Shown: positions 1 to 17,489, counted from the first letter of the stretch. The stretch is 42,826 nt of DNA from Flavobacteriales bacterium (GCA_016763795.1 JAESTF010000333.1:1-42826); one strand, 5' to 3'. Numbers and translations: made by a program. Notes: generated from the sequence alone by a model not told the origin.

Positions 1-1
1 T

Positions 2-2045: not shown

Positions 2046-2046
2046 A

Positions 2047-3327: not shown

Positions 3328-3336
3328 TCGATAAAT

Positions 3337-3897
3337 TTATTTCTTTTTCTTCTTTTTTGCTGCAATTTTCGCTTCTTTTTTTGCTTTTTTAGCAGCTGCC
3401 TTTTTTTGTTGTTCTTTTCTTTGTTTAAGGTAATATTCTCGTCTTATCTTTTCCTCTTTTGTTTCTGGTCGTTCATCAATCTCAGCATGATATTTTTTCA
3501 TGTCAAAATTTTTCATACCTCCACCTAAACCTAAACCTGAAACAGATACAGGTCCAATACCAATCCCTACACTCATTCCTGATTGGTTTTGTGGAGGCGT
3601 TATTCGTAATGGTAATTCTTTATTTAAAGCTATTTCACCCAATATTTGACCTTTAGAACCAACAATTACTACAACATCTGGATAAGCTTTAAAATACCAT
3701 TTTCCTTTTATTACTTTTCCATTAACTTTAGAAATCATCATTGCTCCCTGCTTAATTACATGCTTTACTTTTCCTTCTTTAGAGATAATAATAGAATATA
3801 TTTTTCGGGAATCATCATTTCCATAACCTTCCCTAGCTTGAGAAAACACTGTTAGGTTAATTATAATTAACAGCAGTACTAAATTTAGTTTTTTCAT
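3337..3897 (-). CDS. Hypothetical secreted protein with a Gly-rich segment and a poly-lysine/alanine C-terminal tail
   Basis: Signal peptide MKKLNLVLLLIIINLTVFSQ. The tail is ...KKAAAKKAKKEAKIAAKKKKKK. No family recognised. Confidence 0.5.
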   Translation of the reverse strand: MKKLNLVLLLIIINLTVFSQAREGYGNDDSRKIYSIIISKEGKVKHVIKQGAMMISKVNGKVIKGKWYFKAYPDVVVIVGSKGQILGEIALNKELPLRITPPQNQSGMSVGIGIGPVSVSGLGLGGGMKNFDMKKYHAEIDERPETKEEKIRREYYLKQRKEQQKKAAAKKAKKEAKIAAKKKKKK

Positions 3898-3995
3898 AAT
3901 AACAGTTTTTTAGTTTATACCAAAATTAATGGATTTAGTTCGTAATAATTTCATCTTCCCATAAATGACAGATTTTTAGTATATTAGCTAATATA

Positions 3996-6143
3996 ATGCA
4001 ACAACTAAACCACATTCCTTTGTTACGTTTGTTAATCCCATTTATTCTCGGAATAATTGGAGTTGTTTACCTCAAACCAAATTCAGATTATCTCATTTTA
4101 AGTTTGGGAATTTTAGTAATTTTTTTTTTCGGTTTACTATTAGTTAAAAAAATAAATGCTAACTATAAAATAAGGTGGCTATTTGGAATATTCATTTACG
4201 CCAGTTTAATTTTATCAGGAGCTTCCTTAACCAGTTTGAAATATAAAAACACCAATAACACATCTAAACTTTTAACCGAAAAAAACAACCAATTATTAAT
4301 AGGAGAAATAATTGAACCACCTCAAAATAAAGCTAAAAGCATAAAAACGGTACTGAATATTAAAGGAATTAAAACACAAAGTAGTTGGATTGAAGGAACT
4401 GGAAAAGTGATTATTTACTTACAAAAAGATAGTTTATCCGATAAACTAAATGTTGGCGATGTAATTTCTTTTGAACCCAAGTTGAAAAATGTTCCTCCAC
4501 CAAAAAATCCAAATGAATTTGATTTTAGGAAATACCTTTCATTTCATTTAATACATCAACAAGCTTATTTGCGCTCTAATAATTGGAAATTAGTACAACA
4601 ATCTCCAACAACAGGTATTTTTAAATTTGCGAATAATAGTCGTAAATACTTAATTAAAACATTAGAAGAAAAAGGAATTAAAGGAAAAGAACTGGCGGTT
4701 GCATCTGCTTTAATTTTAGGGTATAAAGATAGTATTGATGCTCAACTAAAAAGTGCTTACTCAAGTGCTGGAGCAATGCATGTGTTAGCTGTTTCGGGTT
4801 TACATGTGGGTGTTATTTTTTTAATATTTAGCCAATTATTTTCATTTTTTGAGAAAATTAAATATGGTAAAATTATTAAAGGAGTTTTACTTATTATTAT
4901 ACTTTGGGTATATGCATTGCTTACAGGTTTATCACCATCAGTAATGCGAGCAGCAACTATGTTTAGTTTTATCGTTGTAGCAAAAATGACGAATAGAAAT
5001 TCTAGTTTCTTTAATACATTAGCTGCATCTGCATTGGTTTTACTTATTTATAATCCACTGTTAATTATGGAAGTTGGTTTTCAACTTTCTTATATGGCTG
5101 TTATTGGTATTGTAATTATTCAGCCTTGGATAAACGATAGAGTTACCTTGAAATACTGGTTGCCGCGTAAAGTTTGGGAAATAACAGCAGTTTCTATTGC
5201 CGCTCAAATTGCAACATTCCCGTTGGGATTATTGTATTTTCATCAATTTCCTAATTATTTTATGCTCTCTAATTTAATTGTAATACCACTTGCTATAGGT
5301 ATTTTGTATTTAGGGATAATTACCCTAAGTCTATCATTTATACCTGTGGTTGGCGAATATTTAGCACTCGGTCTAAATTATATTATTCAGTTTTTAAATG
5401 CCTCGGTTAATTTTATTGATTCATTACCTTACTCTTTATCAGAAAACATACGTTTTAGCGTTACGGATACTTGGCTCGTTTATCTTTTTATTATTTTCAT
5501 CATTACATTAATTGCTTATCGAAAATTTAAGTACCTATTGTTTGGATGTTGTTTTATTGCCGTCTTTTTGATGTCAACTTTCTGGGTAAGTTTTTCGGGT
5601 TTGGATCAGCGGAAAATTATTATTTATAACATACCTCAATTCTCTGCCATTAATTTTATTGATGGAGCTGATAATATTTTAGTTTCAGACATTAAGCTGA
5701 CTCAAAATAGGAGTAAGCTAATGTTTCACGTTCAAAATAATTGGATTAATAATGGTGTCGATAAAGAAAAGGTAGTGAACTTAGACCATCTCATTAAAAA
5801 ATATTCACTTTCTAATATTTATAGAATATCTAATAGGAACCTCTTTACAAAAAGAAATTATTTTCAATTCTACGACACTAAAATTGCTATAATTGACAAC
5901 AAATATCAACTTAGCCACAGTAGTGATAAATTGAATATTGATTTACTGTTGTTAACGAAAAATACACAACTTTCTATCAAAGAAATTCTTAGTCAATTTA
6001 ATCCTAAACAAATAGTAGTTGATGCTTCAAATTCTTCTTATACCTCACAACGTTTAAAAGATGAAGCAAATGAATACGAAGTTAATTGTTGGGTCGTTTT
6101 GCTGGATGGGGCTTACATTAAAAATATAAATCAAATTACCTAA
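3996..6143 (+). CDS. comEC: ComEC/Rec2 family DNA-internalisation competence protein
   Basis: Polytopic membrane protein of 715 aa. N-terminal OB/DUF4131-like region and competence-domain motifs (GAMHVLAVSGLHVG, LSPSVMRAATMF). The C-terminal ~180 aa shows no HxHxDH metallo-beta-lactamase motif. Confidence 0.85.
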   Translation: MQQLNHIPLLRLLIPFILGIIGVVYLKPNSDYLILSLGILVIFFFGLLLVKKINANYKIRWLFGIFIYASLILSGASLTSLKYKNTNNTSKLLTEKNNQLLIGEIIEPPQNKAKSIKTVLNIKGIKTQSSWIEGTGKVIIYLQKDSLSDKLNVGDVISFEPKLKNVPPPKNPNEFDFRKYLSFHLIHQQAYLRSNNWKLVQQSPTTGIFKFANNSRKYLIKTLEEKGIKGKELAVASALILGYKDSIDAQLKSAYSSAGAMHVLAVSGLHVGVIFLIFSQLFSFFEKIKYGKIIKGVLLIIILWVYALLTGLSPSVMRAATMFSFIVVAKMTNRNSSFFNTLAASALVLLIYNPLLIMEVGFQLSYMAVIGIVIIQPWINDRVTLKYWLPRKVWEITAVSIAAQIATFPLGLLYFHQFPNYFMLSNLIVIPLAIGILYLGIITLSLSFIPVVGEYLALGLNYIIQFLNASVNFIDSLPYSLSENIRFSVTDTWLVYLFIIFIITLIAYRKFKYLLFGCCFIAVFLMSTFWVSFSGLDQRKIIIYNIPQFSAINFIDGADNILVSDIKLTQNRSKLMFHVQNNWINNGVDKEKVVNLDHLIKKYSLSNIYRISNRNLFTKRNYFQFYDTKIAIIDNKYQLSHSSDKLNIDLLLLTKNTQLSIKEILSQFNPKQIVVDASNSSYTSQRLKDEANEYEVNCWVVLLDGAYIKNINQIT
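6026..6074 (+). repeat. Left copy of an att-like direct repeat, inside the comEC 3' end
   Basis: By hand alignment, 43 of 49 nt are identical to 14848-14896. This includes the exact 19-mer caacgtttaaaagatgaag (6048-6066 = 14870-14888). Confidence 0.6.
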
Positions 6144-6168
6144 TTTTAAGTATTATAAAAACAAAATT

Positions 6169-6486
6169 ATGAAGGCAGGAAAATTAATAGGAATCGTACT
6201 CGCTATTTTAGGATTAATAACTTTTATACTAATTATTACAGTATTTAATAATACTCTTTCAATTCCAAAAATTATAATTTGTGGTCCCTCATTTTTAATA
6301 GTTGGTGTAGCAATGATTATTTTTCCTGGCGGAAATATTACTGTCTCAGAAATTAATAATAAAACAAAATTAGGAGGCGAAATATGGTCTGGGGCACCAA
6401 CACTACATAAAATAGTTTGGATATTATCATTATTGCTAGGGACTGCTGCCGTTTTCTATCAACTAAATAAAATTGGATTATTGTAG
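6169..6486 (+). CDS. Small integral membrane protein (about 3 TM helices), unknown function
   Basis: 105-aa ORF with hydrophobic stretches LIGIVLAILGLITFILIITVF, IIICGPSFLIVGVAMIIFP and IVWILSLLLGTAAVFY. No family recognised. Confidence 0.5.
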   Translation: MKAGKLIGIVLAILGLITFILIITVFNNTLSIPKIIICGPSFLIVGVAMIIFPGGNITVSEINNKTKLGGEIWSGAPTLHKIVWILSLLLGTAAVFYQLNKIGLL

Positions 6487-6631
6487 ATATAAAATATTGT
6501 TTTTCAGTTGGTTATATTTGTTTTACTATTTTTTTGCTAAAGAATAACTTTATTTAGTTAATGGTATTCTATACATAATTAAAAACTATTAATTATTATA
6601 TTAGCATTCCACAAAAACAAATGATTATACT

Positions 6632-7474
6632 ATGGTAATAATTGGATACAGATCAACTTTAATTGGAGAAACTACTTTGTCTTTTACAACATGTGAAGAA
6701 TGTGGGACAAAAAACTCTTATACGGTTTTTACCTACGGAAGATATTTTCATGTTTTTTGGATACCACTATTTCCAATAGGAAAGACTTATTTAGCTGAAT
6801 GCTCTCATTGCAAAAAAGCATACAGTAAGGAGCGATTGTTTACCAAAGAAGTTAGAGAGGCTTTTCATACAGAAAGAGTTAGAACACCAGTTAAAAGACC
6901 ATTTTGGCACAGTATAGGGTCATTAATGATTTTAGGGATAATTGGCTTAAGCATTATTACTGCTCTAATAGCTATAGCGACTGATGATGGCTCTGCAGAA
7001 AAGAAAAGATTAGCTGAAGAACCTTTTAAAGAGGCATTAGAAATGGACCTAGCTAAATTAAGCAGCAACGTAGCACTTGATGATTCTTTAACTTTTTATA
7101 TTAAAGATTGCCTATCTTTTAGTTTAAATAATGAGGTGAATGAAGATGAGATAGAATATTATACAGAAATGAAGGAAGACAAAATTCTTATTTTATTACG
7201 GATTAGAGACATTAAGAAGATTAAGAAAAAGTCACGAAAAAAGCTAATAGAATTTATTGAAATGTGTGTGAATTTAAACGATGAACCGAATACAAGAGAT
7301 TTATATATTATGGTAAAAGGTAAATACACTCCAATATTACTTAAAACTCCTTTCGAATCTGATTTGGGTGGTTACTTAGCATCAAAGAGTGATCTTTACC
7401 CGTATTATGCAGATGATAACCAGAGCAAAGATTCGACAACTGTAGCGATAGAAGTAGTTATAAATTCTTTGTAA
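6632..7474 (+). CDS. Zinc-ribbon domain membrane protein, unknown function
   Basis: An N-terminal CxxC...CxxC ribbon (CEECGTKN...CSHCKKAY) encloses the FHVFWIPLFPIGK motif typical of zinc-ribbon membrane proteins. One TM helix follows (SIGSLMILGIIGLSIITALIAIA), then a ~160-aa acidic/basic C-terminal domain. Confidence 0.55.
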   Translation: MVIIGYRSTLIGETTLSFTTCEECGTKNSYTVFTYGRYFHVFWIPLFPIGKTYLAECSHCKKAYSKERLFTKEVREAFHTERVRTPVKRPFWHSIGSLMILGIIGLSIITALIAIATDDGSAEKKRLAEEPFKEALEMDLAKLSSNVALDDSLTFYIKDCLSFSLNNEVNEDEIEYYTEMKEDKILILLRIRDIKKIKKKSRKKLIEFIEMCVNLNDEPNTRDLYIMVKGKYTPILLKTPFESDLGGYLASKSDLYPYYADDNQSKDSTTVAIEVVINSL

Positions 7475-8259
7475 ATTAAACCAAAAATCAAAAAGCATTG
7501 AATTATTGATAATGACTAAATGGCTTGTTGTTATTAGAGTGTTAATTGATAGTATAATTCTTAGAGTCTTTATTCAGAACAAATTAACTAACCAACTTAT
7601 TCCCGCGGGTTATTTGCATATAATTAGTCATTATGTTACTTTTCTTGTAATTCTTAACATAATAATTTAAATAAACGCTCTTAATTGTTGTACATCTATT
7701 ATAAGTATAATGTTAAGGTATATATATGATATAGGAGACTTAAATTATATAAAGAACTGTTTTAGGTAATTCTTTAACATTTACTAGATGGATTAGGTTT
7801 TTTTGTTTTGAATTCATTGAAGTTGAAAATGAAAATATTTTCTCAATCAAGAAAGTTATGTTATTATAGATGGAAAACGGAGGAGTATAGAACACTATAC
7901 TTTCACCTAAATACAAAGGAAATGATAGTCCGGATGTAAAAGTAATTACAACTTGATACACTAAAAATGCTCAAAGAGAATAAACCACAAAAATACATAG
8001 AAAGTTTATGAATATATTGTTTCAAAACGAAATAATTTATTATATCAATTGATTTTCAGTGGTTTAGCAGTCATTCTTTTGCGAAGAATATAGCATAGTA
8101 AAACCTAATATCACTTGGACTTATTTTATTAGATCGAATTAATACGGTATGATACGTAAACACATTTGTGTGATTTTACTGATGAATAATATTCTTATAA
8201 TTTTTAATTTTTGGTCATTATTTAATTTAGAATAATTAAAAATAAAAAAAAGTAATTCT

Positions 8260-9126
8260 ATGTGTTCAGATATACCAAATTTTAAAGTCCAAAAAGAAAA
8301 TGTATGTATTTATAATGATGAATTTTCAAATTCTCGGAAGCCTATAAATATTGTTCAACTTAATCTTTTAAAAAATGCTGGGTGTGCAGGCGGATGTAAA
8401 TTTTGTGGACTTAGTATTTCTTCAGAAGTTGATCGAAAGACGACTGCAACTGAGAAGGACTTTCAAAATTCATTTAATGATGCTCGTAATTCAAATTCTC
8501 GTTTAGAACTTGTATTTCCAAGTGTTGGTGCTAATCAAATGGAAGTACTTGGGTTGTTGTCTAAAATGACTGATGTTATTAATGATAATTCAGATATTGA
8601 ATTGGCAGTTAATCCTGGAATTTGTACACGTGAAGATTTTTATTCACAACTAGCAGAACTGGGAGTCTCTAGATATAGAAATAACTTAGAAAATTCCCGT
8701 AGATTGTTTAAGGAGCTTGTACCTAAACGGTCACTTGCTCAAGACTCAAAATTACAATCAATGGATCTTGCACGAGCTGCAGGTTTAAAAGTAGATACTG
8801 GTTGGTTGTGCGGACTAGGTGAAAATGAAGCAGATATTAAAGATATGCTAGAGCTTTTAAATGTATCAAATCCAGATTCAATAACCTTAAATTTTTTTGA
8901 TCATCGTGAGAGCGCTGAAGATTTTGATTATACAACTCCTTCCCGTCAGACAGGGTTAGAAAGAATAACAGTACTCCGCACTCATTTTCCTGAAGTTGAA
9001 ATTACTTTAGGAGGTGCTCATGGTTTATGGCTTGGTTCAAAAGCAATTGATATCCCACAGATTAACGGGGTATATGTTGGAAGATTTCTTGACCATGGTT
9101 TACGAGAAGAAAGTAAAAAGCAGTAA
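8260..9126 (+). CDS. Radical SAM enzyme, divergent BioB/HydE/PylB-like subfamily
   Basis: CX3CX2C motif CAGGCKFC (C42/C46/C49, nt 8383-8406). Colinear with BioB landmarks: YRNNLENS vs YNHNLDTS, AAGLKVDTGWLCGLGEN vs AGIKVCSGGIVGLGET, DSITLNFF vs ESVPINML. Only 288 aa, and the BioB auxiliary-cluster Cys positions are not conserved. Confidence 0.8.
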   Translation: MCSDIPNFKVQKENVCIYNDEFSNSRKPINIVQLNLLKNAGCAGGCKFCGLSISSEVDRKTTATEKDFQNSFNDARNSNSRLELVFPSVGANQMEVLGLLSKMTDVINDNSDIELAVNPGICTREDFYSQLAELGVSRYRNNLENSRRLFKELVPKRSLAQDSKLQSMDLARAAGLKVDTGWLCGLGENEADIKDMLELLNVSNPDSITLNFFDHRESAEDFDYTTPSRQTGLERITVLRTHFPEVEITLGGAHGLWLGSKAIDIPQINGVYVGRFLDHGLREESKKQ

Positions 9127-9174
9127 ACAGCTATGAAATAGGAGATAATCAATGAAATTAGTTTAAAGTAGTTC

Positions 9175-10401
9175 ATGAAAACTAAAAAAACACCTCAAGT
9201 AGAGGTTCTTATTATTGGAGGAGGACAGGCTGGGTTGGCGATGAGTAATTGTCTAACGGGGTGTAATATTTCACATGTTGTAATAGAACGTGGAAAAATT
9301 GCTAATCGATGGAGGAATGAAAGTTGGGATTCACTCCGTCTTCTTACCCCTAATTATCAAACCCGTCTACCAAATTGGTGCTACAAAGGAAAAGACCTGA
9401 ATGGTTATATGAGTGTTCAAGAGTTAATTTCGTTTTTAGAAAACTATGCAAAATCTTTTAATTCTCCGATCAAGACTGGAGTTATTGTAGAGTCTGTTAC
9501 ACAACGAACAAAAGGATTTCAAATATGTACAGATGCAGGGACATGGGAAGCAAAATCTATAGTAATTGCTACTGGGCATTGTAATACACCATTTGTACCT
9601 AAATTTTCTAAGAATTTAAATTCAGAATACAAACAATTAATTTCTCATCAATATAGAAATCCTAAACAGATAGGTTCGGGAAAGGTATTGATTGTAGGTG
9701 GAAGTGCAACTGGAGCACAAATTGCTGAAGAATTGATAAATGCTGGAAGAAACGTAACATTATCAGTAGGCCGACATCGAAGACTTCCGCGTAGTTACCG
9801 TAATAAAGATATATTATGGTGGGTAGAAAAAATGGGAATTTTTTGTCAACCTGCAGATCCTGAATCTGAGCGGAATTACCCTGCTCCTCAGCTTATAGGA
9901 TCAGTTGATGGAAGATCTCTTGATGTTGGAATTTTACAAAACTTAGGAGTAAAGCTGGTTGGTAGAGTAACTAGTATAAAAGATCATTTAATACAATTTG
10001 ATTCTAATTTGGAACACGATGTTAATCATGCAGAAGAGGAGATGCGTGAACTTCTAGCTCGGATAGATGCTTATGCGACAAAACAAGGGTTCGATGAGAA
10101 AACCGAACGAATCAATTCGGTAAAAATAGAACCTACAGCAGTTGAAATTAATTTAAAACAAGATAATTTTGAAACTATAATTTGGGCAACAGGATATCGT
10201 AGAGCCTATGATTGGTTAAACATCGATATGCTTGATAAGAATGGTGAATTACAACATGTATCAGGGATAACAGAACAACCAGGAGTTTATGCATTAGGAT
10301 TGCGTAGACAACGTAAATATAATTCAAATTTTATTGATGGAGTTGGTGAGGATGCATCATTTCTTACGAGTCATTTAAAAAACTACATTTCAACCATATG
10401 A
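9175..10401 (+). CDS. FAD/NAD(P)-dependent oxidoreductase, flavin-monooxygenase (CzcO/FMO-like) type
   Basis: FAD fingerprint VLIIGGGQAGLA, WDSLRLLTPN motif, second dinucleotide site VLIVGGSATGAQIA, and a C-terminal ATGY motif (IWATGYRRAY). Confidence 0.8.
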   Translation: MKTKKTPQVEVLIIGGGQAGLAMSNCLTGCNISHVVIERGKIANRWRNESWDSLRLLTPNYQTRLPNWCYKGKDLNGYMSVQELISFLENYAKSFNSPIKTGVIVESVTQRTKGFQICTDAGTWEAKSIVIATGHCNTPFVPKFSKNLNSEYKQLISHQYRNPKQIGSGKVLIVGGSATGAQIAEELINAGRNVTLSVGRHRRLPRSYRNKDILWWVEKMGIFCQPADPESERNYPAPQLIGSVDGRSLDVGILQNLGVKLVGRVTSIKDHLIQFDSNLEHDVNHAEEEMRELLARIDAYATKQGFDEKTERINSVKIEPTAVEINLKQDNFETIIWATGYRRAYDWLNIDMLDKNGELQHVSGITEQPGVYALGLRRQRKYNSNFIDGVGEDASFLTSHLKNYISTI

Positions 10402-11768
10402 GGATGTTAGGTGGAAAATCCATAAAAGAACTAGGAAGAATGATTAGGACAGAAGGTCTTAAATGTGAGGAATTAACTGAAACGATACTGTCTGATATAG
10501 AATCTCGTAACAATCATCTCAAAGCTTTTGTGAGGACTACCGCTGAAAGAGCTTTTGAAGAATCTCGTTTCGCCCAAATAGAACTAGATAATGGTATTGA
10601 TAGGGGACCTCTTCATGGAATTCCTTACGCGATTAAAGATTTGTTTGATGTTGCCGGAGAACCGAATAGTGCTGGCACACCTTTATTAGAAGACAATATA
10701 GCAACAAAAGATGCAGATATTGTAACACGTATGAAGCGTTCGGGAGCGGTGTTAGTGGGGCAAACAAATACGAGTCCGTTAGGAGCTACTATTTTAGGAA
10801 TCAATCATGCATTCGGTACACCTCATAATCCTTGGAAAAAAGAAGCTTTTATTCCAGGTGGATCATCTAGTGGTTCAGCTGTAGCTGTAGCTTCTGGACT
10901 AATTCCATTTGCATTGGGTACTGATACAGGAGGTTCAATACGAGTACCTGCAGCTATGTGTGGAATCGTTGGTCTTAAAACAACCGTAGGAAAGATTGAT
11001 GTAAGTGGAATGAGTCCACTTTCTCCTACATACGATTCTATAGGCACCTTAACCCGATCAGTTAATGATGCATTATTGGTGTATGGAGCATTACAAGATG
11101 AACCAATAGATTGTGGTAAGCGTGTAGAAAAATTAAAGATTGGCCTTTGTGAAAATATATTTTTTGATGAAATAGAATTAGAAGTAAAAAATGCAGTGTT
11201 AGATGCTGCTAATACCCTTGCTAGTCTGGGTACAGAAATTTGTTCACTTAAATTACAGGAGGTTGACATTATCTATGATCAGATTAAAGAAACAAGTTTA
11301 ATCGCCACAGAAGCATATCCATTACATAAAAAAATAATTGAAAATTCGAGTATGGATTGGGTTACAAATTGGCTAAAAGTAGCCAGTAACTATTCAGTTG
11401 AACAAGTAGTACATTCACAAAAAAAAATAAAAGAACTTTCATTTCAACTCGATATTCGCACTAAAAATCTAGATGCCATAATCGTGCCTACTACACCAAT
11501 TGTTGCAAAGTTGGTTTCTAGCTGCGATTCATATGAATCTCACGCTAAGATATCTTCATTAATTTCAAGGAATACCCAAATTGGTAATATGGTAGGATGG
11601 TGTGGCATTGCACTCCCTTGTGGTATTAGTCAAAATGGTCTTCCTATAAGCCTTTTAATTTACACTGGTGCAAATAATGAGCATACTGCATTTAGTATTG
11701 CTAAATCCCTTGAGCAAGCCTTATTAATGAAGTTAGGTAGCTTAAAGCCACCATATATTTTTAATTAG
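10398..11768 (+). CDS. Amidase-signature (AS) family amidase
   Basis: Catalytic Lys context PYAIKDLFDV. AS signature GGSSSGSAVAVASG and nucleophile region GTDTGGSIRVPAA. The start overlaps the upstream stop by 4 nt (ATGA at 10398-10401). Confidence 0.85.
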   Translation: MRMLGGKSIKELGRMIRTEGLKCEELTETILSDIESRNNHLKAFVRTTAERAFEESRFAQIELDNGIDRGPLHGIPYAIKDLFDVAGEPNSAGTPLLEDNIATKDADIVTRMKRSGAVLVGQTNTSPLGATILGINHAFGTPHNPWKKEAFIPGGSSSGSAVAVASGLIPFALGTDTGGSIRVPAAMCGIVGLKTTVGKIDVSGMSPLSPTYDSIGTLTRSVNDALLVYGALQDEPIDCGKRVEKLKIGLCENIFFDEIELEVKNAVLDAANTLASLGTEICSLKLQEVDIIYDQIKETSLIATEAYPLHKKIIENSSMDWVTNWLKVASNYSVEQVVHSQKKIKELSFQLDIRTKNLDAIIVPTTPIVAKLVSSCDSYESHAKISSLISRNTQIGNMVGWCGIALPCGISQNGLPISLLIYTGANNEHTAFSIAKSLEQALLMKLGSLKPPYIFN

Positions 11769-11821
11769 GAGAATTATAAAACAATGGATTACGATATTAT
11801 TAATTTAAAAAATATACTTAA

Positions 11822-13075
11822 ATGAACGATATAAATAAAGAAACCTTATCAATAAAATTTTCTGAAACGCGAGAAGAAGCAAAAGAGGAATACGAAAAAC
11901 ATTTAGGCTCTTTTTTACGAGATAGTCCTGTTGTTGCAAGACGGGGTGATCCTGATGTTGCTGATTTGTTATTTGGAGACCCTCATGATCCTTCATTAAC
12001 TGGTCTTGGAGAGATACTACATACACAAGTTGATATTAGCCAAGAAAAAGGTTATCGATATGTACACCATATGGAAGAAGCACGAGCAGCAGCGGCAAAG
12101 GCTCTTTCACAACGTACTAGTTTAGATTTTGCAGTTGAAGATTTATTTCTTACAACAGGAGCTTTCTCTGGTTTAGTAACATGCCTGCAAGCTTTGTGCG
12201 AAAAAAATTCAGAAGTAGTATATTTTAGTCCTCCTTGGTTTTATTACCGATCTATGATTAAATCTGTAGGAGCTATTCCGAAAGGAGTTGATCTTAACCC
12301 TGAAGATTGGTCGATTCCTTTTGATAAATTGGCAGAGGCTATTGGTCCTAAAACAAGTGCTATACTAGTAAATTCACCACATAATCCAAGTGGAAAAATT
12401 TTTTCTGATAGTGAACTTTCAGAACTAGCTCAAGTTGTTTCAGCTGCGAGTAAACGATTGGGGCGCGATATTCCCATAATTTCGGATGAAGCTTACTCTC
12501 GTATTGTTTATGAATGTTCGCATGCCCCCACACCAGCAAAATATTATCCGGCAACCATTATAATATACACTTATGGTAAAACACTTCTAGCACCCAGTTT
12601 ACGTTTAGGTTATATGGTACTTGCTCCAGGATTTCCTGGTGCACTTAAGATGAGAAGAATGTTTGATGCGATTCAACCTATGGGAGGCTGGCTACTTCCT
12701 AGTTGTTTGGTACAGAGAGCACTGCCTGACCTAGAGTTGTTATGTGTTGATCTAGTTCAGCTTAAACATCGCAGGGATAAATTAGTTGAGGCGTTAAGAG
12801 AAGGAGGTTATACAGTAATCCCAGCTGAGGGTACATTTTACATGTTGGTAAAAAGTCCACAGTTAGATGACGAAGCTTTTTCACGTTACCTTGAAAGTCG
12901 TAATGTTTTAGTTCTTCCGGGATCAACACTAGAAGTTCCTGGTACTTTTCGAGTGTCACTTACAGCTTCTGATGAAATGATAGATCAAGCTTCAGAGGTC
13001 TTTAAATCAGGATGGCAACCCTTTTTTATTAATTATAATGAAGAAAAATACGATAAAATAAAACTCAATAAATAG
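11822..13075 (+). CDS. PLP-dependent aminotransferase, class I/II fold
   Basis: Motifs LVNSPHNPSGK and ISDEAYSRIVY. Putative PLP-lysine in YTYGKTLLAPSLRLGY. C-terminal FRVSLTAS. Confidence 0.85.
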   Translation: MNDINKETLSIKFSETREEAKEEYEKHLGSFLRDSPVVARRGDPDVADLLFGDPHDPSLTGLGEILHTQVDISQEKGYRYVHHMEEARAAAAKALSQRTSLDFAVEDLFLTTGAFSGLVTCLQALCEKNSEVVYFSPPWFYYRSMIKSVGAIPKGVDLNPEDWSIPFDKLAEAIGPKTSAILVNSPHNPSGKIFSDSELSELAQVVSAASKRLGRDIPIISDEAYSRIVYECSHAPTPAKYYPATIIIYTYGKTLLAPSLRLGYMVLAPGFPGALKMRRMFDAIQPMGGWLLPSCLVQRALPDLELLCVDLVQLKHRRDKLVEALREGGYTVIPAEGTFYMLVKSPQLDDEAFSRYLESRNVLVLPGSTLEVPGTFRVSLTASDEMIDQASEVFKSGWQPFFINYNEEKYDKIKLNK

Positions 13076-13264
13076 AATTTAAAATGATGTAAATGTTTAT
13101 TGCAGAAAAAGAAATGTAGAAATAAATTAACTAGTTTTGAAAATGAATTGTAGTTCAAATCGATAATAATAAAAGGAATTATTATAACGGTAATTAGTAG
13201 AAAGACTACACCTTAATTAGATTAGTTAGCAATAAATATATTAACTCACAACAAAAATACACGG

Positions 13265-14251
13265 ATGAAATTAGCAACAATAAATAATAATACAAGAGAT
13301 GGCGAATTAGTAATAGTTAATAGAGCATTAACAAAAGCTGTTCGAGTTCCTGAAATTGCTTCAACCATGCAAATGGCAATTGACAATTGGGGGAGTACTG
13401 AAGAAAAACTTAAAAATGTTTATGATTCGTTAAACTTAGGAACCGTAGATAATGCATTTGATTTTACAGAAGAAGGAGTTATGGCGATACTTCCAAGAGC
13501 ATATCATTGGGTAGATGCAAGCGCTTACGTAACTCATGTTGAGTTAGTTAGGAAGGCAAGAAATGCAGAGCTACCTGGTTCTTACTGGACAGATCCATTA
13601 GTGTACATGGGGGCATCTGATGCTTTTATTGGTCCATATGATGACATAGAGATAGAGAATGATGAATGGGGAATTGATTTTGAATCAGAAATTGCTGTAA
13701 TTACAGATGATGTACCGGCTGGAGTTGATTCTAAAGAAGCATTAAATCATATTAAATTAGTTACAATCGTTAATGATGTTACGCTTAGAAATTTAATTCC
13801 TCAAGAATTAGCCAAACAATTTGGGTTTTATCAATCAAAACCTTGGACCGCTTTTGCACCTGTTTCTGTAACATTAGATGAACTTGATGAAGCTTGGAAA
13901 GATGGAAAACTTCATTTACCTATACATTCAACTTTAAATGAAGAATTAATTGGCTCTCCAAATGCTGGAATTGATATGACTTTTGATTTTGGTGAATTGA
14001 TTGCTCATGCTGCAAAAACACGTTCTTTAATGGCAGGAACTGTCGTTGGTTCGGGTACAGTAGCAAATCAAGGAAGTCCTAATGGATCTAGCTGCCTTGC
14101 AGAACTAAGATGCTTAGAAATAATTAAAGATGGTGAAGCTTCAACTCCATTTATGACTTTTGGAGATAGAATTGAAATTGAAGTGAAAAATGATAGTGGT
14201 CATTCAATTTTTGGAAAAATTAATCAAGTTGTAAAACAATATAAAAAATAA
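13265..14251 (+). CDS. Fumarylacetoacetate hydrolase (FAH) family protein
   Basis: 328 aa. Typical N-terminus MKLATI...DGELVIV. Metal-ligand contexts IDFESEIAVI and VNDVTLRN. GTVVGSGTV near the C-terminus. Separated from the upstream gene by a 189-bp AT-rich spacer. Confidence 0.85.
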   Translation: MKLATINNNTRDGELVIVNRALTKAVRVPEIASTMQMAIDNWGSTEEKLKNVYDSLNLGTVDNAFDFTEEGVMAILPRAYHWVDASAYVTHVELVRKARNAELPGSYWTDPLVYMGASDAFIGPYDDIEIENDEWGIDFESEIAVITDDVPAGVDSKEALNHIKLVTIVNDVTLRNLIPQELAKQFGFYQSKPWTAFAPVSVTLDELDEAWKDGKLHLPIHSTLNEELIGSPNAGIDMTFDFGELIAHAAKTRSLMAGTVVGSGTVANQGSPNGSSCLAELRCLEIIKDGEASTPFMTFGDRIEIEVKNDSGHSIFGKINQVVKQYKK

Positions 14252-14327
14252 TCTATTCTTTGATTTTTACTTAAAAATTATTAGAATCAATTAAATTTCT
14301 ATTTAATATAATAATAAAGAGCTATTG

Positions 14328-14360
14328 ATCGCTGGCCTGAAACAAAATTGGGCCAGCGAT
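14328..14360 (+). other. Perfect 10-bp-stem hairpin downstream of the FAH gene (possible terminator or RNA/protein-binding site)
   Basis: atcgctggcc (14328-14337), a 13-nt loop, then ggccagcgat (14351-14360). The stem is GC-rich in AT-rich surroundings. No U-tract follows. Confidence 0.35.
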
Positions 14361-14847
14361 GGCTGTGAAAAGAGTTCACGAACAATCGAACAGTAAATAA
14401 GGAGTGAGTAATATATAAATTCGTAAAAACAAACAAAAGGGCTTCTCCTTTTGTTGTGGAGCAAATAATTACTTTAGTATTGTTTTAGCATTTGTATAGG
14501 GATGGTGGATAGCATAGGTTTACATGTCCACAGGACATCTAACGCTATCTTGATTTTTATTAAGATAAAGCAAAGTCAGAGAACGCAGTATGAAAAAATG
14601 AGGAAAAAGCCTTCTTAAGGCAAATAGCATTTTAAATACAAATAAACAACCACAGGTAAAATTTTTGAGCGATGACAAAATAAAGATTTAAAGATGCTGA
14701 GCCTTGTGCGGAAATTTTACATTATAAAGTCTAAACGACTACAAATGGCTCTATATAAAAGAACCAATTCTTGTCCTGTAATTTGACCTATCTTAAATAG
14801 TTATAGATGGATGAAAGGTTAATATGGTTATTTTAATCCTAAATAAA

Positions 14848-14896
14848 TTCAAACTCATCTTACACTTCTCAACGTTTAAAAGATGAAGAAAATGAA
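14848..14896 (+). repeat. Right copy of the att-like direct repeat
   Basis: 43 of 49 nt identical to 6026-6074. No similarity to comEC was detected immediately upstream of 14848. Confidence 0.6.
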
Positions 14897-14958
14897 CTCT
14901 AACAAAGTTGGTAGGCGATTTTATTAGAAGGTGATTTTACCCAAAAATATTTAACACC
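14848..14958 (+). pseudogene. comEC: Displaced, degenerate remnant of the comEC 3' end (last ~35 codons)
   Basis: Translates colinearly as NSSYTSQRLKDEENEL*QSW*AILLEGDFTQKYL. The intact end reads NSSYTSQRLKDEANEYEVNCWVVLLDGAYIKNIN. There are two in-frame stops and no upstream ORF. Confidence 0.55.
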
Positions 14959-15023
14959 TTTTGTCAATTGCGGACTTTTATCTCGTTTGCAAATGGCTAC
15001 TTTTACTTTTCAAAATTTTAGTT

Positions 15024-17489
15024 ATGAGAAAAATTATTGCAGTACTCTTGTTATTCATTTCTATAGCAACATTTGCTCAAAAACAAATGAACTCATCAGA
15101 AATTAAATTAGCATTAAAAAAGCTGAATATTTTAGGCAGCGTTTTATATCTTGCTGCACACCCCGATGATGAAAACACTCGATTAATTGCTTATATGGCC
15201 AATGAGAAATTGGTAAGAACAGGCTATTTATCTTTGACACGAGGTGATGGCGGGCAAAATCTTATTGGAACAGAAAAAGGACCTTTAATGGGTGTTTTAA
15301 GAACGCAAGAATTATTAGAGGCTAGAAAGCTTGATGGAGGAGAACAATTTTTTACACGTGCTGTAGATTTTGGTTATTCTAAAACGGCTGAAGAAACTTT
15401 TGTAAAATGGGATAAACAAAAAGTGCTGGCAGATGTTGTTTGGGCAATAAGAAAGTTTAGACCGGATGTAATTATTACTCGTTTTCCTCCTACAAAAAGA
15501 GCAGGACACGGACATCATACCGCATCAGCAATATTAGCAGCAGAGGCTTTTGATTTGGCAGCAGATCCAAAAGCATTTCCTGAACAACTTGCATATACAT
15601 CTGTTTGGCAACCTAAACGATTATATTTAAACACGAGTACTTGGTGGGATAAAGAGTTACCTCAAAAAGCAAAAGATAATCCAGCTAAATATATCACTAT
15701 TGATGTTGGAACTTACAATACTTTATTAGGAAAATCGTATTCTGAAATTGCTTCAGAAAGTAGAACAATGCATAAGAGTCAAGGTTTTGGTTCTGGAAAA
15801 GTACGAGGTTCTAAATTAGAATATTTAGAATTAGTTAAAGGAGAAAAAGGTGAGAATAACGATATTTTTGATGGTGTTGATATTTCGTGGAATAGAATAA
15901 AAAATGGCAATGAAATTAAAAAAATATTATCTGAAACAAATTATAGCTACGAAATAGAACACCCAGAAAGGATAGTTCCTCAATTATTTAAAGCATACCA
16001 ACTAATTGATAAATTACCCGATAGTGAACAATGGAAATGGGTGAAACTAAGTAAACTTAGAGAAGTAATTTCTACTTGTGCTGGTTTATTTGTTGAGGTT
16101 ACAGCTGAAGATTATAGTGTGGCTACTGGGACAGAAATAAAACTGACTACACGTTTAGTGAATAGAAGCAGTCTTAAAGTAGAATTACTTGACGCAAAAT
16201 ACGGAGAAAAGGATACTACAATTAATATTATGCTAGCTAATAATGAGACCTTAAGTTTTGAAAGTAGCTTTACTTGTTCAAATAATCAAAAAACAAACCC
16301 GTATTGGTTAAAACATGATTTTGAAGGGATTTACACTGTAGATTCTCAGAGTTTAATTGGAGTTCCGCAAAACCGTAGTTCTATATCAGTATTGTTTACT
16401 TTTAAAATTAATGATGTTTATTTTCCTGTCTTCAGAAATGTAACTTATAAACATACTGACAGAGTAAAAGGAGAAATTTATCGTCCGTTTGTAGTATTGC
16501 CAAAAGTAACGGCTAATGTTTCTGATAATGTATTTATTTTCTCAAATAGTTTACCTAAAGAGATTCGTGTGACTCTTCAAGCGCACAAAGAAAATGAAAC
16601 AGGAAATGTTTCCTTAAGCCTTCCTCTTGGTTGGAAATCTGAACCTTTATCTATTCAATATAATTTGATAAAAAAGAATGAAGAAATAATAGCTGTTTTT
16701 AATGTTACTCCATCAGCTAACGAAAGTGTTGGAGAAGTGAAAGTGATTTTGAATAATTTAGAGAAAACAGCTAAAAGTTTAATTGCGATTGAATACGATC
16801 ATATTCAAACCCAAACCTTATTACCAGAAGCAAAAGCGAAACTGGTTCGATTAAACGTACAAATTAAAGGCAAAAAAATAGGTTATATTAAAGGAGCAGG
16901 AGATGAAGTGCCATCTGCTTTAGAACAATTGGGTTATTCCATTACCATGTTGGATGAAAATAGCTTAAAGAATAATGATTTATCACAATATGATGCAATT
17001 GTTGCAGGAATAAGAACTTACAACACCAATGATTACATGGCGAATGTGTACGACAAATTAATGGAGTACGTAAAAAATGGAGGTAACTATGTAGTACAAT
17101 ACAATACGAATAGGCGAGTTGATACTAGAACAATGGCTCCTTACCCTTTAAAACTATCGAGAGATAGGGTTACGGTTGAAGAAGCTAAAACTACTTTTTT
17201 AGCTCCTGAACATACTATTATGAACACTCCTAATAAAATTTTAATGTCAGATTTTGATAATTGGGTGCAAGAAAGAGGTCTGTATTTTCCGAATGAATGG
17301 GATAAAAATTACACTCCTATTTTAGGTTGGAAAGATCCCAATGAAGAAATGGTGAAAGGAAGTTTGTTAGTTGCTAGTTACGGAAAAGGAAGCTTTATTT
17401 ATACAGGAATTTCATTTTTCAGAGAATTACCTGCTGGTGTTTCAGGAGCATTTAAGTTATTTGCTAATATTGTGTCTTATGGGAAATGA
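15024..17489 (+). CDS. PIG-L/LmbE family deacetylase with a large C-terminal extension ending in a ThuA/GATase1-like domain
   Basis: Signal peptide MRKIIAVLLLFISIATFAQ. PIG-L signature LAAHPDDENTRLI and RAGHGHH. C-terminal segment IGYIKGAGDEVPSALEQLGY...YDAIVAGIRTYNT. The ATG at 15024 is preferred over the TTG at 14961. Confidence 0.8.
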   Translation: MRKIIAVLLLFISIATFAQKQMNSSEIKLALKKLNILGSVLYLAAHPDDENTRLIAYMANEKLVRTGYLSLTRGDGGQNLIGTEKGPLMGVLRTQELLEARKLDGGEQFFTRAVDFGYSKTAEETFVKWDKQKVLADVVWAIRKFRPDVIITRFPPTKRAGHGHHTASAILAAEAFDLAADPKAFPEQLAYTSVWQPKRLYLNTSTWWDKELPQKAKDNPAKYITIDVGTYNTLLGKSYSEIASESRTMHKSQGFGSGKVRGSKLEYLELVKGEKGENNDIFDGVDISWNRIKNGNEIKKILSETNYSYEIEHPERIVPQLFKAYQLIDKLPDSEQWKWVKLSKLREVISTCAGLFVEVTAEDYSVATGTEIKLTTRLVNRSSLKVELLDAKYGEKDTTINIMLANNETLSFESSFTCSNNQKTNPYWLKHDFEGIYTVDSQSLIGVPQNRSSISVLFTFKINDVYFPVFRNVTYKHTDRVKGEIYRPFVVLPKVTANVSDNVFIFSNSLPKEIRVTLQAHKENETGNVSLSLPLGWKSEPLSIQYNLIKKNEEIIAVFNVTPSANESVGEVKVILNNLEKTAKSLIAIEYDHIQTQTLLPEAKAKLVRLNVQIKGKKIGYIKGAGDEVPSALEQLGYSITMLDENSLKNNDLSQYDAIVAGIRTYNTNDYMANVYDKLMEYVKNGGNYVVQYNTNRRVDTRTMAPYPLKLSRDRVTVEEAKTTFLAPEHTIMNTPNKILMSDFDNWVQERGLYFPNEWDKNYTPILGWKDPNEEMVKGSLLVASYGKGSFIYTGISFFRELPAGVSGAFKLFANIVSYGK

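What the first reader, a model, noticed from the sequence alone, without database searches (positions are those of the whole stretch)
8260..14251. Orphan enzyme cassette: BioB-like radical SAM, FMO-type flavoprotein, AS amidase and class-I aminotransferase, possibly with an FAH-family hydrolase
Five same-strand genes sit inside the bracketed island. The first four are tightly packed, with gaps of 48 and 53 nt and an ATGA start/stop overlap at 10398-10401, which suggests one transcript with translational coupling. Catalytic motifs look intact in every gene: CX3CX2C; GGGQAG plus GGSATG plus ATGY; K...GGSSSGS...GTDTGGS; NPSGK/DEAY/PLP-Lys; FAH ExE/D ligands. Together the set offers radical C-H chemistry, flavin-dependent oxygenation, amide hydrolysis, transamination and, through FAH, C-C hydrolysis, decarboxylation or isomerisation of a 1,3-dicarbonyl. 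That fits making or degrading an amino-acid-derived small molecule. I cannot map the combination to a named pathway. It is not biotin (no bioF/A/D logic and the wrong aminotransferase class), thiamine, pyrrolysine or the homogentisate route. No regulator, transporter, NRPS/PKS, ATP-grasp or obvious precursor peptide accompanies it. Hand counts of sampled 60-nt lines in 8260-13075 gave about 32-43% G+C, against about 25-38% in sampled flank lines. That is weak evidence for a foreign origin. The FAH gene follows a 189-bp spacer and looks more host-like in composition, so it may be a separate unit.
Basis: partly seen in the sequence, partly recalled or inferred. Interest (0 to 1): 0.75.

Follow-up and report, generated by a model that had tools for sequence, protein, structure and literature searches.

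The report
Rare orphan radical-SAM enzyme cassette
This is a real, very rare four-gene enzyme operon, passed between distant bacterial phyla and here carried on a small inserted island, that most likely builds an unusual amino-acid-type molecule by chemistry nobody has yet characterised.

Summary
In about 12 independent lineages from at least four phyla (Bacteroidota, Nitrospinota, Cyanobacteria, Acidobacteriota) plus a 70% G+C organism, the order rSAM–flavoprotein–amidase–aminotransferase never changes and all catalytic motifs are kept.

The rSAM and the aminotransferase are tiny cassette-specific orthogroups. The rSAM family is about 24 clusters among 5.8 billion proteins and a single 50%-identity cluster among 1.84 billion representatives. 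It has a BioB/HydE/PylB fold but lacks all three cysteine ligands of BioB's auxiliary cluster.

The strict core is rSAM, flavoprotein and aminotransferase; one lineage lacks the amidase. The fifth gene varies: an ordinary Bacteroidota FAH, a CysK-like enzyme, or nothing.

In one lineage the cassette sits inside acyl-ligase/carrier/condensation/NRPS clusters. An orthologous aminotransferase also follows a giant NRPS. The most likely role is therefore building a specialised amino acid; nitrogen-scavenging catabolism is the main rival.

In the window, cassette and FAH lie in an 8.8-kb insertion at the comEC 3′ end, marked by a decayed comEC relic. No published pathway matches. The product is unknown.

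The parts
6026..6114 (+). Left copy of the island-bracketing direct repeat. It lies inside the intact 3' end of comEC (gene 3996-6143).
   Evidence: 89 nt at 73% identity (core 49 nt at 88%) to 14848-14936; 43 of 49 matches against at most 31 in shuffles.
6169..6486 (+). 105-aa predicted membrane protein. Island passenger, not found next to the cassette elsewhere.
   Evidence: ORF; no Pfam family; no homologue in any fetched locus.
6632..7474 (+). 280-aa zinc-ribbon (PF17032) protein with a transmembrane segment. Island passenger.
   Evidence: Zn_ribbon_15, 38 bits; absent from the other loci.
7475..8259 (.). 785-nt AT-rich (24% G+C) non-coding stretch upstream of the operon, presumed to be the promoter region. 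No riboswitch and no gene relic detected.
8260..9126 (+). Radical SAM enzyme of a new, tiny BioB-fold subfamily. CX3CX2C at C42/C46/C49, plus family-invariant C122 (NPGICT), C184 (GWLCGLGE), RYRNNLE and FLDH. The first 28 residues or so are a window-specific extension that is disordered in the model.
9175..10401 (+). Class B-type flavoprotein monooxygenase with two dinucleotide-binding motifs. Its nearest named family is MSMEG_0569 (the Nit1C flavoprotein), at 341 bits against a cutoff of 498.
10398..11768 (+). Amidase-signature (Ser-cisSer-Lys) amidase. Its start overlaps the flavoprotein stop (ATGA). Present in all lineages but one.
   Evidence: The overlap is conserved in L001, L003, L005, L013, L018 and L021.
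11822..13075 (+). Class I PLP aminotransferase belonging to a cassette-specific orthogroup. It is the best-conserved gene (64-75% identity across phyla).
13076..13264 (.). 189-nt AT-FAH spacer. It holds one Bacteroidota-type -7 promoter motif (TAGTTTTG, 13132-13139) and no predicted terminator.
   Evidence: This is weak evidence, because the motif occurs at 0.72 per kb across the window.
13265..14251 (+). FAH-family protein (FAA_hydro_N_2 + FAA_hydrolase). It is an ordinary, ubiquitous Bacteroidota type and a variable accessory partner of the cassette. Here it runs in the same direction as the operon; in all other loci it is convergent.
14848..14936 (+). Right copy of the bracketing repeat: a decayed, displaced comEC 3' end. 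It reads ..SNSSYTSQRLKDEENE..W..ILLEG.., interrupted by stops and frameshifts. Similarity begins near 14826 (FNPK).

Best explanation
The block is a self-contained, horizontally mobile small-molecule pathway. Its invariant core is a radical SAM enzyme, a class B flavoprotein monooxygenase and a class I aminotransferase, and an amidase-signature amidase is almost always inserted between the last two. I judge it most likely biosynthetic: it converts a common amino or 2-oxo acid into a specialised (non-proteinogenic) amino acid or a close derivative.

Inferred order of events:
1. The rSAM has a BioB/HydE/PylB-type full barrel but lacks the three cysteine ligands of BioB's auxiliary cluster, so I infer it does not insert sulfur. 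It probably uses the 5'-deoxyadenosyl radical to abstract hydrogen from an unactivated carbon, performing the committed C-H functionalisation or skeletal rearrangement. Invariant C122 is probably involved.
2. The flavoprotein oxygenates the intermediate. This could be heteroatom oxygenation or a Baeyer-Villiger-type or oxidative-decarboxylation step.
3. The amidase is translationally coupled to the flavoprotein and hydrolyses a carboxamide. This could be on the intermediate itself or on the keto-amide by-product of a Gln/Asn-dependent transamination. The step is dispensable in one lineage.
4. The aminotransferase installs or exchanges the alpha-amino group.

In some lineages the product is passed to an acyl-AMP ligase, carrier protein, free-standing condensation enzyme and MFS transporter, or to a multimodular NRPS. 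In the window no such genes are present, so the product would be a free metabolite.

Shown: the genes, motifs, fold, conservation, gene order, rarity, contexts and island structure. Inferred: the direction of the pathway (making rather than degrading), the order of steps and each enzyme's substrate.

The FAH gene is a recurrent neighbour in Bacteroidota. It may handle a 2-oxo or 2,4-dioxo acid linked to the transamination, but it is not part of the core.
For: Conservation of the cassette:
- Gene order is invariant in about 12 lineages from at least four phyla plus a 70% G+C organism.
- All ORFs are intact with their catalytic motifs.
- The 4-nt overlap between the flavoprotein and amidase genes is conserved.

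Cassette-specific orthogroups:
- The rSAM family is 24 clusters at 56-72% identity, then a gap to BioB at about 25%. It forms one 50% cluster among 1.84e9 representatives, with the next hit at 133 bits.
- The aminotransferase family is about 20 clusters at 56-74%, then a gap to 47% or less.

The rSAM enzyme:
- Fold: pLDDT 81.7; BioB TM 0.71-0.76, HydE/PylB about 0.68.
- BioB residues C97, C128 and C188 align to P, A and D.

Biosynthetic context:
- L018 and its 20-kb sister contig: NusG-like, KASIII-like, acyl-AMP ligase, 91-aa weak PP-binding protein, PPTase, [cassette], FAH, C, A-T, T, NRPS of more than 1500 aa.
- L021: NusG-like, acyl-AMP ligase, 87-aa ORF, C, MFS, [cassette], FAH.
- L013: formyltransferase, weak C-like ORF, MFS, [cassette].
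- L022: NRPS of more than 3739 aa, 2OG oxygenase, then an orthologous aminotransferase that nests inside the cassette clade.
- L020: type III PKS/KASIII, N-acetyltransferase and thioesterase neighbours.

Patchy, HGT-like distribution:
- 3 of 185,579 species genomes and 6 metagenome contigs.
- IS elements beside the cassette in Acaryochloris.
- The island structure in the window.
Against: - No substrate or product can be named.
- Most loci (the window, both Pedobacter genomes, Nitrohelix, Acaryochloris, L009-11, L014, L019) have no NRPS, ligase or carrier genes within 10 kb.
- The clear NRPS-type contexts come from one cassette clade plus one aminotransferase-only locus.
- Nitrohelix has LysR and a TctCBA importer directly upstream. 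L019 has catabolic-looking neighbours: an FAD-linked oxidase and an amidohydrolase.
- An amidase, an aminotransferase and an FAH are all typical of nitrogen-releasing catabolism.
- The flavoprotein's nearest family belongs to operons induced by nitrogen starvation or cyanide.
- The NJ phylogeny has weak internal support.
- The window shows no exporter, regulator or resistance gene.
Confidence: 0.5

Rival explanations
1. Catabolic or nitrogen-scavenging module. The four enzymes break down an imported compound that carries both amide and amine groups. The rSAM and flavoprotein open or activate the skeleton, the amidase and aminotransferase release both nitrogens, and FAH (where present) cleaves or decarboxylates the resulting 2-oxo or 2,4-dioxo acid into central metabolites.
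For: - LysR and the TctCBA importer lie directly upstream in Nitrohelix.
- An MFS gene abuts the rSAM gene in L013 and L021.
- L019 has an FAD-linked oxidase and an amidohydrolase as neighbours.
- Most loci are stand-alone, with no biosynthetic partners.
- The FAH superfamily is classically catabolic (established knowledge).
- The nearest flavoprotein family, MSMEG_0569/NitH, sits in operons induced by nitrogen starvation or cyanide.
Against: - The cassette is embedded in NRPS/acyl-ligase/carrier/PPTase clusters in one clade, with FAH lying between cassette and NRPS genes.
- An orthologous aminotransferase follows a giant NRPS.
- Radical SAM enzymes are uncommon in aerobic catabolism (general knowledge).
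- The extreme rarity argues against a widely available substrate.
- The amidase is dispensable in L020.
Confidence: 0.3
2. Variant of the Nit1C-type system. The rSAM, the MSMEG_0569-like flavoprotein and a C-N hydrolase (here an amidase in place of the nitrilase) carry out the same, still unknown, chemistry as Nit1C. In Pseudomonas, Nit1C is needed to assimilate cyanide and nitriles. The CysK-like partner would act as a beta-cyanoalanine-synthase-type enzyme.
For: - The flavoprotein aligns full-length to TIGR04046 at E 7.6e-102.
- Nit1C also pairs a 'biotin synthase-related' rSAM with a COG2072 flavoprotein and a C-N hydrolase, and is likewise patchy across phyla.
- CysK-like genes accompany the cassette outside Bacteroidota.
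Against: - The flavoprotein score is below the family cutoff (341 against 498).
- The rSAM has no hit to the Nit1C rSAM model.
- The nitrilase, GNAT, AIR-synthase-like protein and the two hypothetical proteins are all absent.
- An aminotransferase that Nit1C lacks is the best-conserved gene here.
Confidence: 0.07
3. Sulfur-insertion pathway of the BioB/LipA type that makes a thio-cofactor or thio-amino acid. The CysK-like gene would supply sulfur and the flavoprotein would act as a disulfide or S-oxidoreductase.
For: - The closest sequence and structural relatives of the rSAM are biotin synthases, and lipoyl synthases also appear.
- The flavoprotein hits pyridine-nucleotide-disulfide oxidoreductase families.
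- A CysK-like partner is present in several lineages.
Against: - None of BioB's three cysteine auxiliary-cluster ligands is present (they align to P, A and D) and there is no LipA-type N-terminal cysteine motif.
- Only two extra invariant cysteines exist.
- There is no BATS domain.
- The CysK-like gene is absent from the Bacteroidota, L014, L019 and L020 loci.
Confidence: 0.05
4. Chance juxtaposition of unrelated enzymes in a variable region.
For: None beyond the mixed enzyme classes.
Against: - Order and orientation are identical in about 12 lineages across phyla.
- The rSAM and aminotransferase orthogroups co-occur almost without exception.
Confidence: 0.01

Closest known systems
Biotin synthase BioB (types I and II) and the BioB/HydE/PylB/HydG full-barrel radical SAM clade
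   Same: - Same fold: TM 0.71-0.76 to BioB and about 0.68 to HydE and PylB.
- CX3CX2C motif present.
- Equivalents of BioB N153, D155 and N222 are kept (N142, E144, N211).
- BioB is the best sequence hit.
   Different: - Only about 20-25% identity.
- NCBIfam bioB score of 99 against a cutoff of 225.
- No BATS domain.
- Auxiliary-cluster ligands C97, C128 and C188 are replaced by P, A and D.
- No bio genes nearby.
- Shorter (about 260 aa), with the cluster loop at residue 14 or so.
- Has its own invariant C122, C184 and FLDH motifs.
Nit1C gene cluster (Podar et al. 2005, PMC1199592; nitA-H of Pseudomonas pseudoalcaligenes)
   Same: - Pairs a BioB-related rSAM with a COG2072/MSMEG_0569-type flavoprotein and a C-N hydrolase.
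- Highly conserved as a block, patchy across phyla, and flanked by unrelated genes and IS elements.
- The flavoprotein is the nearest named family to ours.
   Different: - Has an amidase-signature amidase instead of a nitrilase.
- Adds an aminotransferase.
- Lacks the GNAT, the AIR-synthase-like protein and the two hypothetical proteins.
- The rSAM is not of the MSMEG_0568 family.
- The flavoprotein scores below the family cutoff.
Amino-acid building-block sub-clusters beside NRPS genes, such as VioC/VioD (capreomycidine) and MppP/Q/R (enduracididine). This comparison is from my own knowledge and was not tested here.
   Same: - A small set of oxidising enzymes plus a class I PLP enzyme makes a non-proteinogenic amino acid for an adjacent NRPS.
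- L022 (2OG oxygenase, cassette-type aminotransferase, NRPS) and the L018/L021 contexts have this layout.
   Different: - The oxidising partners here are a radical SAM enzyme and a flavoprotein.
- An amidase is included.
- Most copies, including the window's, have no NRPS nearby.
- The product is unknown.
Transaminase-based two-step logics: glutamine transaminase with omega-amidase (MtnE/MtnU in methionine salvage), and TAA/YUCCA (aminotransferase with an FMO that oxidatively decarboxylates). This comparison is from my own knowledge.
   Same: An aminotransferase is paired with an amide hydrolase, or with a class B flavoprotein. Either pairing could explain why the amidase is dispensable, or why the flavoprotein and aminotransferase always co-occur.
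   Different: - Omega-amidases belong to the nitrilase superfamily, not the amidase-signature family.
- No sequence relationship to MtnE/MtnU or YUCCA was shown.
- Neither logic involves an rSAM.

Membership tests
Biotin synthase (BioB) | Score above the curated equivalog cutoff (TIGR00433, 225 bits) | tested here: not met
   98.8 bits.
Biotin synthase (BioB) | Cysteine ligands of the auxiliary Fe-S cluster (E. coli C97, C128, C188; the fourth ligand, R260, was not assessed) | tested here: not met
   A profile-to-1R30 alignment places P, A and D at these positions. The family's invariant cysteines are only C42/46/49, C122 and C184.
Biotin synthase (BioB) | C-terminal BATS domain (PF06968) and bio-operon context | tested here: not met
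   Only PF04055 is found, whereas true BioB hits carry PF06968. There are no bioF/A/D genes in the window.
Radical SAM superfamily | CX3CX2C motif, PF04055 above threshold, partial or full TIM-barrel fold | tested here: met
   CAGGCKFC is invariant. PF04055 scores 35.5 against a cutoff of 29.5. The model has eight strands and matches BioB at TM 0.76.
Nit1C cluster | Subfamily-1 nitrilase plus GNAT, AIR-synthase-like protein and two conserved hypothetical proteins | tested here: not met
   None are present in the window or in any orthologous locus.
Nit1C cluster | MSMEG_0569-family flavoprotein (TIGR04046, cutoff 498) and MSMEG_0568-family rSAM | tested here: not met
   The flavoprotein scores 341 bits, full length but below the cutoff. 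The rSAM shows no hit to the MSMEG_0568 model at E <= 0.01.
Class B flavoprotein monooxygenase | Two dinucleotide-binding motifs, Pyr_redox_3/FMO-like profiles above threshold | tested here: met
   PF13738 scores 104 bits and PF00743 scores 27.8 against a cutoff of 22. GGGQAG, GGSATG and ATGY are present. PDB type II FMOs match the N-terminal half only. Monooxygenase activity itself is not testable here.
Amidase-signature family | PF01425 above threshold; Lys, cis-Ser and Ser triad motifs | tested here: met
   269.5 bits. GGSSSGS and G(T/S)DTGGS are conserved in all orthologues. No curated equivalog cutoff is reached; the best is PRK06102 at 320 against 559.
Class I/II aminotransferase | PF00155 above threshold; PLP-lysine, Asn, Asp and Tyr motifs | tested here: met
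   140 bits. SPHNPxGK, DE(A/S)Y and YTYGK..LRxGY are conserved in all orthologues. No equivalog cutoff is reached; the best is PRK06836 at 263 against 376.
FAH superfamily (FAA_hydro_N_2 type) | PF18288 and PF01557 above threshold | tested here: met
   93.6 and 125.8 bits. E 1.7e-113 to 3LZK, a structure of unknown function. More than 8000 homologues, with ordinary Flavobacteriia at 75-79%.
NRPS-type biosynthetic gene cluster (the window itself) | Adenylation, condensation, carrier or PPTase genes adjacent | tested here: not met
   None among the window ORFs of 100 aa or more that were scanned (28 ORFs). They are present in the orthologous loci L018, p06E4X7F, L021 and L022.
Integrative genomic island | Direct repeats that duplicate the target gene end | tested here: met
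   6026-6114 against 14848-14936; the right copy is a decayed comEC 3' end.
Integrative genomic island | Integrase or recombinase gene, tRNA target, compositional (GC3) anomaly | tested here: not met
   No integrase ORF or relic. No tRNA. GC3 equals the host's.

The most novel reading that the evidence does not exclude
The radical SAM protein founds a new BioB-fold family that carries out an undescribed radical C-H functionalisation or rearrangement on an amino-acid scaffold. Together with the flavoprotein, amidase and aminotransferase it would make a previously unknown non-proteinogenic amino acid. That amino acid would be a free bioactive metabolite in most hosts and a building block for lipo-amino-acid or NRPS products in others.
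Probability: 0.35. Interest if true: 0.75.

Novelty: new variant of a known kind. Interest (0 to 1): 0.6.

Why it matters
Each characterised branch of the BioB/HydE/PylB/HydG radical SAM clade has turned out to catalyse a distinctive reaction: sulfur insertion, methylornithine formation, or H-cluster ligand synthesis. This branch is a discrete, strongly conserved subfamily (about 60-70% identity across phyla) with fixed partners, so it is a clean target for enzyme discovery.

The recurring link to condensation and NRPS machinery suggests a new amino-acid building block. Cultivable carriers exist (Pedobacter sp. PAMC26386, P. polysacchareus, P. cryoconitis), so the hypothesis can be tested directly.

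The parallel with the still-unexplained Nit1C cluster means that solving one system may help explain the other. The family's extreme rarity limits its ecological importance.

Tried and rejected
- **Riboswitch or leader RNA.** No Rfam match in window 6400-15200 at E <= 1, and none upstream of the operon in eight orthologous loci.
- **tRNA target.** None in the window.
- **First repeat scan (6400-15200).** It gave only AT-rich chance matches. The true bracket appeared only after widening the search to comEC.
- **PALP gene remnant.** tblastn at E 10 found none in the window's non-coding stretches.
- **Integrase or transposase relics.** None in the island's non-coding parts.
- **Similarity of the island flanks or small ORFs to other loci.** None found.
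- **Cassette on plasmids.** Only true BioB at about 25% and outgroup aminotransferases at 40% or less. The Nostoc outgroup context was uninformative.
- **G+C as evidence of foreignness.** Rejected, because GC3 matches the host.
- **FAH as a co-transferred five-gene unit across all lineages.** Rejected. Cassette-linked FAHs do not cluster together, and the window's FAH is closer to more than 110 ordinary FAHs.
- **FAH as a mere resident neighbour in the window.** Weakened, because it lies inside the same comEC-bracketed insertion.
- **Membership of BioB and of Nit1C.** Both rejected (see the membership table).
- **Literature.** Six searches found no paper describing this gene set.
- **Promoter evidence for independent FAH transcription.** Only one weak motif, so this stays undecided.

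Full report
**1. Observation**

They are rSAM 8260-9126, flavoprotein 9175-10401, amidase 10398-11768, aminotransferase 11822-13075 and FAH 13265-14251. The gaps are 48 nt, an ATGA overlap, 53 nt and 189 nt.

Pfam places each protein above its gathering threshold. No curated NCBIfam equivalog cutoff is reached by any of the five, so none is an orthologue of a named enzyme.

The G+C difference exists: 0.360 for the four-gene core against 0.291 and 0.319 for the flanks. GC3, however, is the same as in host genes (0.17-0.21 against 0.20-0.23). The excess therefore reflects protein composition and not recent import.

**2. Recurrence of the cassette**

A search of 5.8 billion proteins with the rSAM found only 24 clusters at 56-72% identity. 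Scores then dropped straight to true BioB at about 25%. An exhaustive HMMER profile search of 1.84 billion 50%-identity representatives collapsed the whole family into one representative (480 bits). The next hit scored 133 bits.

Only 3 of 185,579 species genomes and 6 metagenome contigs carry the family. The aminotransferase behaves the same way: about 20 clusters at 56-74%, then a gap to 47% or less.

Every locus I could read has rSAM, flavoprotein, amidase and aminotransferase in the same order and on the same strand. These loci are:
- Ca. Nitrohelix vancouverensis
- Pedobacter sp. PAMC26386 and P. polysacchareus
- Acaryochloris
- a Pyrinomonadaceae MAG
- several metagenome lineages, including one at 70% G+C

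Identities to the window are rSAM 59-73%, flavoprotein 47-60%, amidase 45-59% and aminotransferase 64-75%. All ORFs are intact and keep their catalytic motifs. The 4-nt overlap between the flavoprotein and amidase genes is conserved in most lineages. Chance juxtaposition is excluded.

**3. Core and accessories**

The Acidobacteriota locus L020 has rSAM, flavoprotein and aminotransferase with a clean 200-nt spacer and no amidase anywhere on the contig. The strict core is therefore three genes.

The gene immediately after the aminotransferase varies between loci:
- An FAH gene in all Bacteroidota-type loci.
- A CysK-like PALP enzyme in Nitrohelix, Acaryochloris and L009-11. It scores 342 bits against a cutoff of 344 for cysKM, and these copies are 70-75% identical to each other.
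- Neither in L014, L019 and L020.

The FAH is not a special paralogue. More than 8000 homologues exist, and ordinary Flavobacteriia without the cassette (Lutimonas, Olleya, Aequorivita, Maribacter, Myroides) are 75-79% identical to it. In those genomes it is a lone gene in variable neighbourhoods.

Cassette-linked FAHs do not cluster together. The window's core genes are closest to the PALP-type loci L009-11, at 66-67% concatenated identity against 54-60% for the FAH-type loci (internal bootstrap support is weak). FAH adjacency therefore arose at least three times. In the window FAH runs in the same direction as the operon; everywhere else it is convergent. That pattern points to functional selection or to a recombination hot spot. 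I cannot decide between the two.

**4. The island in the window**

Positions 14848-14936, in otherwise non-coding DNA, are a decayed copy of the comEC 3' end at 6026-6114. In the 49-nt core 43 positions match, against at most 31 in 60 shuffles.

In the comEC reading frame the relic reads ...FNPK...SNSSYTSQRLKDEENE...W..ILLEG.... The comEC tail reads FNPKQIVVDASNSSYTSQRLKDEANEYEVNCWVVLLDGAY. The relic is interrupted by stops and frameshifts.

So about 8.8 kb was inserted at the end of comEC. The insert holds two small ORFs that occur next to the cassette nowhere else, a 785-nt AT-rich gap, the cassette, FAH, and about 600 nt of non-coding DNA. There is no integrase gene or relic, no tRNA and no GC3 anomaly, so the insertion is probably old or was mediated by recombination. 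The rest of the window is ordinary Bacteroidota chromosome: ParAB, LpxB, SurE, FTHFS and T9SS cargo proteins. It has no NRPS or PKS genes.

**5. The radical SAM enzyme**

The AlphaFold model (pLDDT 81.7, pTM 0.82) is an eight-stranded barrel. Its closest solved structures are the BioB enzymes (TM 0.71-0.76), then HydE, PylB and HydG, all at about 20% identity.

In the profile alignment to E. coli BioB, the auxiliary-cluster ligands C97, C128 and C188 align with P, A and D. There is no BATS domain. The enzyme is therefore not a biotin synthase and probably does not insert sulfur.

The family has its own invariant residues: C122 (NPGICT), C184 (GWLCGLGE), RYRNNLE and FLDH. A handful of short 'cousins' at 26-31% identity share C122, NNLE(T/N)S and RFL(D/N)H but lack C184.

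The first 28 residues or so of the window protein have no counterpart in the homologues and are disordered in the model. The homologues' initiator Met aligns with Ile29.

**6. Function**

No riboswitch, regulator or transporter in the window names a ligand.

Evidence for biosynthesis comes from context:
- In the L012/L018 lineage and its 20-kb sister contig, the cassette follows a NusG-like antiterminator, a KASIII-like protein, an acyl-AMP ligase, a small carrier-like protein and a PPTase. After it come FAH, a condensation enzyme, an A-T didomain, a carrier protein and a multimodular NRPS.
- L021 has NusG-like, acyl-AMP ligase, an 87-aa ORF, a condensation enzyme and an MFS transporter directly upstream.
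- L013 has a formyltransferase, a weak condensation-like ORF and an MFS transporter.
- In L022 an aminotransferase that nests inside the cassette clade follows an NRPS of more than 3739 aa and a 2OG-Fe(II) oxygenase, with no rSAM, flavoprotein or amidase nearby.

These contexts fit a module that makes a specialised amino acid which other enzymes then acylate or incorporate.

Evidence for catabolism or nitrogen scavenging:
- LysR and a TctCBA importer in Nitrohelix.
- Catabolic-looking neighbours in L019.
- The presence of two nitrogen-releasing enzymes.
- The flavoprotein's nearest family (MSMEG_0569/NitH) belongs to Nit1C. Nit1C is induced by nitrogen starvation or cyanide and is needed for cyanide assimilation, although its rSAM and flavoprotein remain biochemically untested.

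I put biosynthesis at about 0.5, catabolism at about 0.3, a Nit1C-like role at about 0.07 and sulfur insertion at about 0.05.

**7. Comparison with known systems and novelty**

The cassette resembles Nit1C in enzyme types and behaves like an NRPS building-block sub-cluster in its context. It fails the membership tests for BioB and for Nit1C. Six literature searches found no description of this gene set. It is not on any sequenced plasmid.

I class it as a new variant of a known kind: an orphan small-molecule pathway built around a new radical SAM subfamily. The product, the substrate and the direction of the pathway remain inferred.

Noticed in passing
window 6026-6114 and 14826-14936: A decayed duplicate of the comEC 3' end lies about 8.8 kb downstream of the intact gene end and brackets an insertion that contains the finding. 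It lies outside the coordinates I was given.
   Followed up: yes
window 8260-8343: The rSAM ORF has a 28-residue N-terminal extension that is absent from all distant homologues (their Met aligns with Ile29) and is disordered in the AlphaFold model. The true start codon is uncertain. A 99%-identical metagenome protein (P0001) has the same length.
   Followed up: partly
window 14252-14847: About 600 nt with no ORF holds a perfect 10-bp inverted repeat (ATCGCTGGCC...GGCCAGCGAT, about 14331-14362) and three minus-strand terminator-like hairpins (14455-14432, 14621-14609, 14766-14746). Across 7400-15100 there are 10 terminator-like sites against 3.3 expected. This could be a decayed gene or a small RNA. 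There is no Rfam match.
   Followed up: partly
window 14961-17489: The listed TTG start at 14961 is probably too early, because an ATG at about 15025 begins a signal-peptide-like MRKIIAVLLLF. The protein is a large PIG-L-family deacetylase with weak DUF2194/ThuA-like C-terminal matches, and it is followed by a sodium:solute symporter.
   Followed up: no
L020 (Pyrinomonadaceae MAG JBTETG010000021.1) 3477-6915: A three-gene version of the cassette with no amidase. It is flanked by a type III PKS/KASIII-like gene, an aminoglycoside-N-acetyltransferase-family gene and a 4HBT thioesterase.
   Followed up: yes
L022 (ENA ERZ25039505 contig_831) 1-11170: A cassette-type aminotransferase (70% identical to the window's) follows an NRPS of more than 3739 aa and a 2OG-Fe(II) oxygenase, with no rSAM, flavoprotein or amidase. 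A DDE transposase lies 2 kb downstream.
   Followed up: partly
L005 (Acaryochloris sp. RU_4_1) 5251-6422: The aminotransferase is split into two overlapping ORFs (251 and 153 aa) in this MAG but is intact in the sister MAG L004. This is either a frameshift or an assembly error.
   Followed up: no
L008 (Pedobacter polysacchareus) about 28-6305: A run of nine minus-strand ORFs whose sizes suggest a urease operon (not checked against Pfam), with an Rfam 5' ureB sRNA match (66.8 bits, 5021-5316), lies about 4 kb upstream of the cassette beyond a two-component system.
   Followed up: no
L013 5069-6840: Three tandem paralogues, each with a phage tail-collar domain (PF07484), sit directly upstream of the formyltransferase, condensation-like ORF and MFS genes that precede the cassette.
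   Followed up: no
proteins P0270-P0274: A handful of short (259-302 aa) radical SAM 'cousins' at 26-31% identity share the NPGIC, NNLETS and RFLNH motifs. They point to a small uncharacterised superfamily between this cassette's rSAM and BioB. Their genomic contexts could not be looked up.
   Followed up: partly
L015-L017 (Lutimonas, Olleya, metagenome): In ordinary Flavobacteriia the conserved FAH gene sits alone amid ParDE toxin-antitoxin genes, IS110 and DDE transposases, AbiH and other accessory genes, as if it borders a variable region.
   Followed up: partly
window 39234-40932: Adjacent parA and parB genes, together with housekeeping genes (lpxB, surE, fhs), show that the window is chromosomal.
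   Followed up: no
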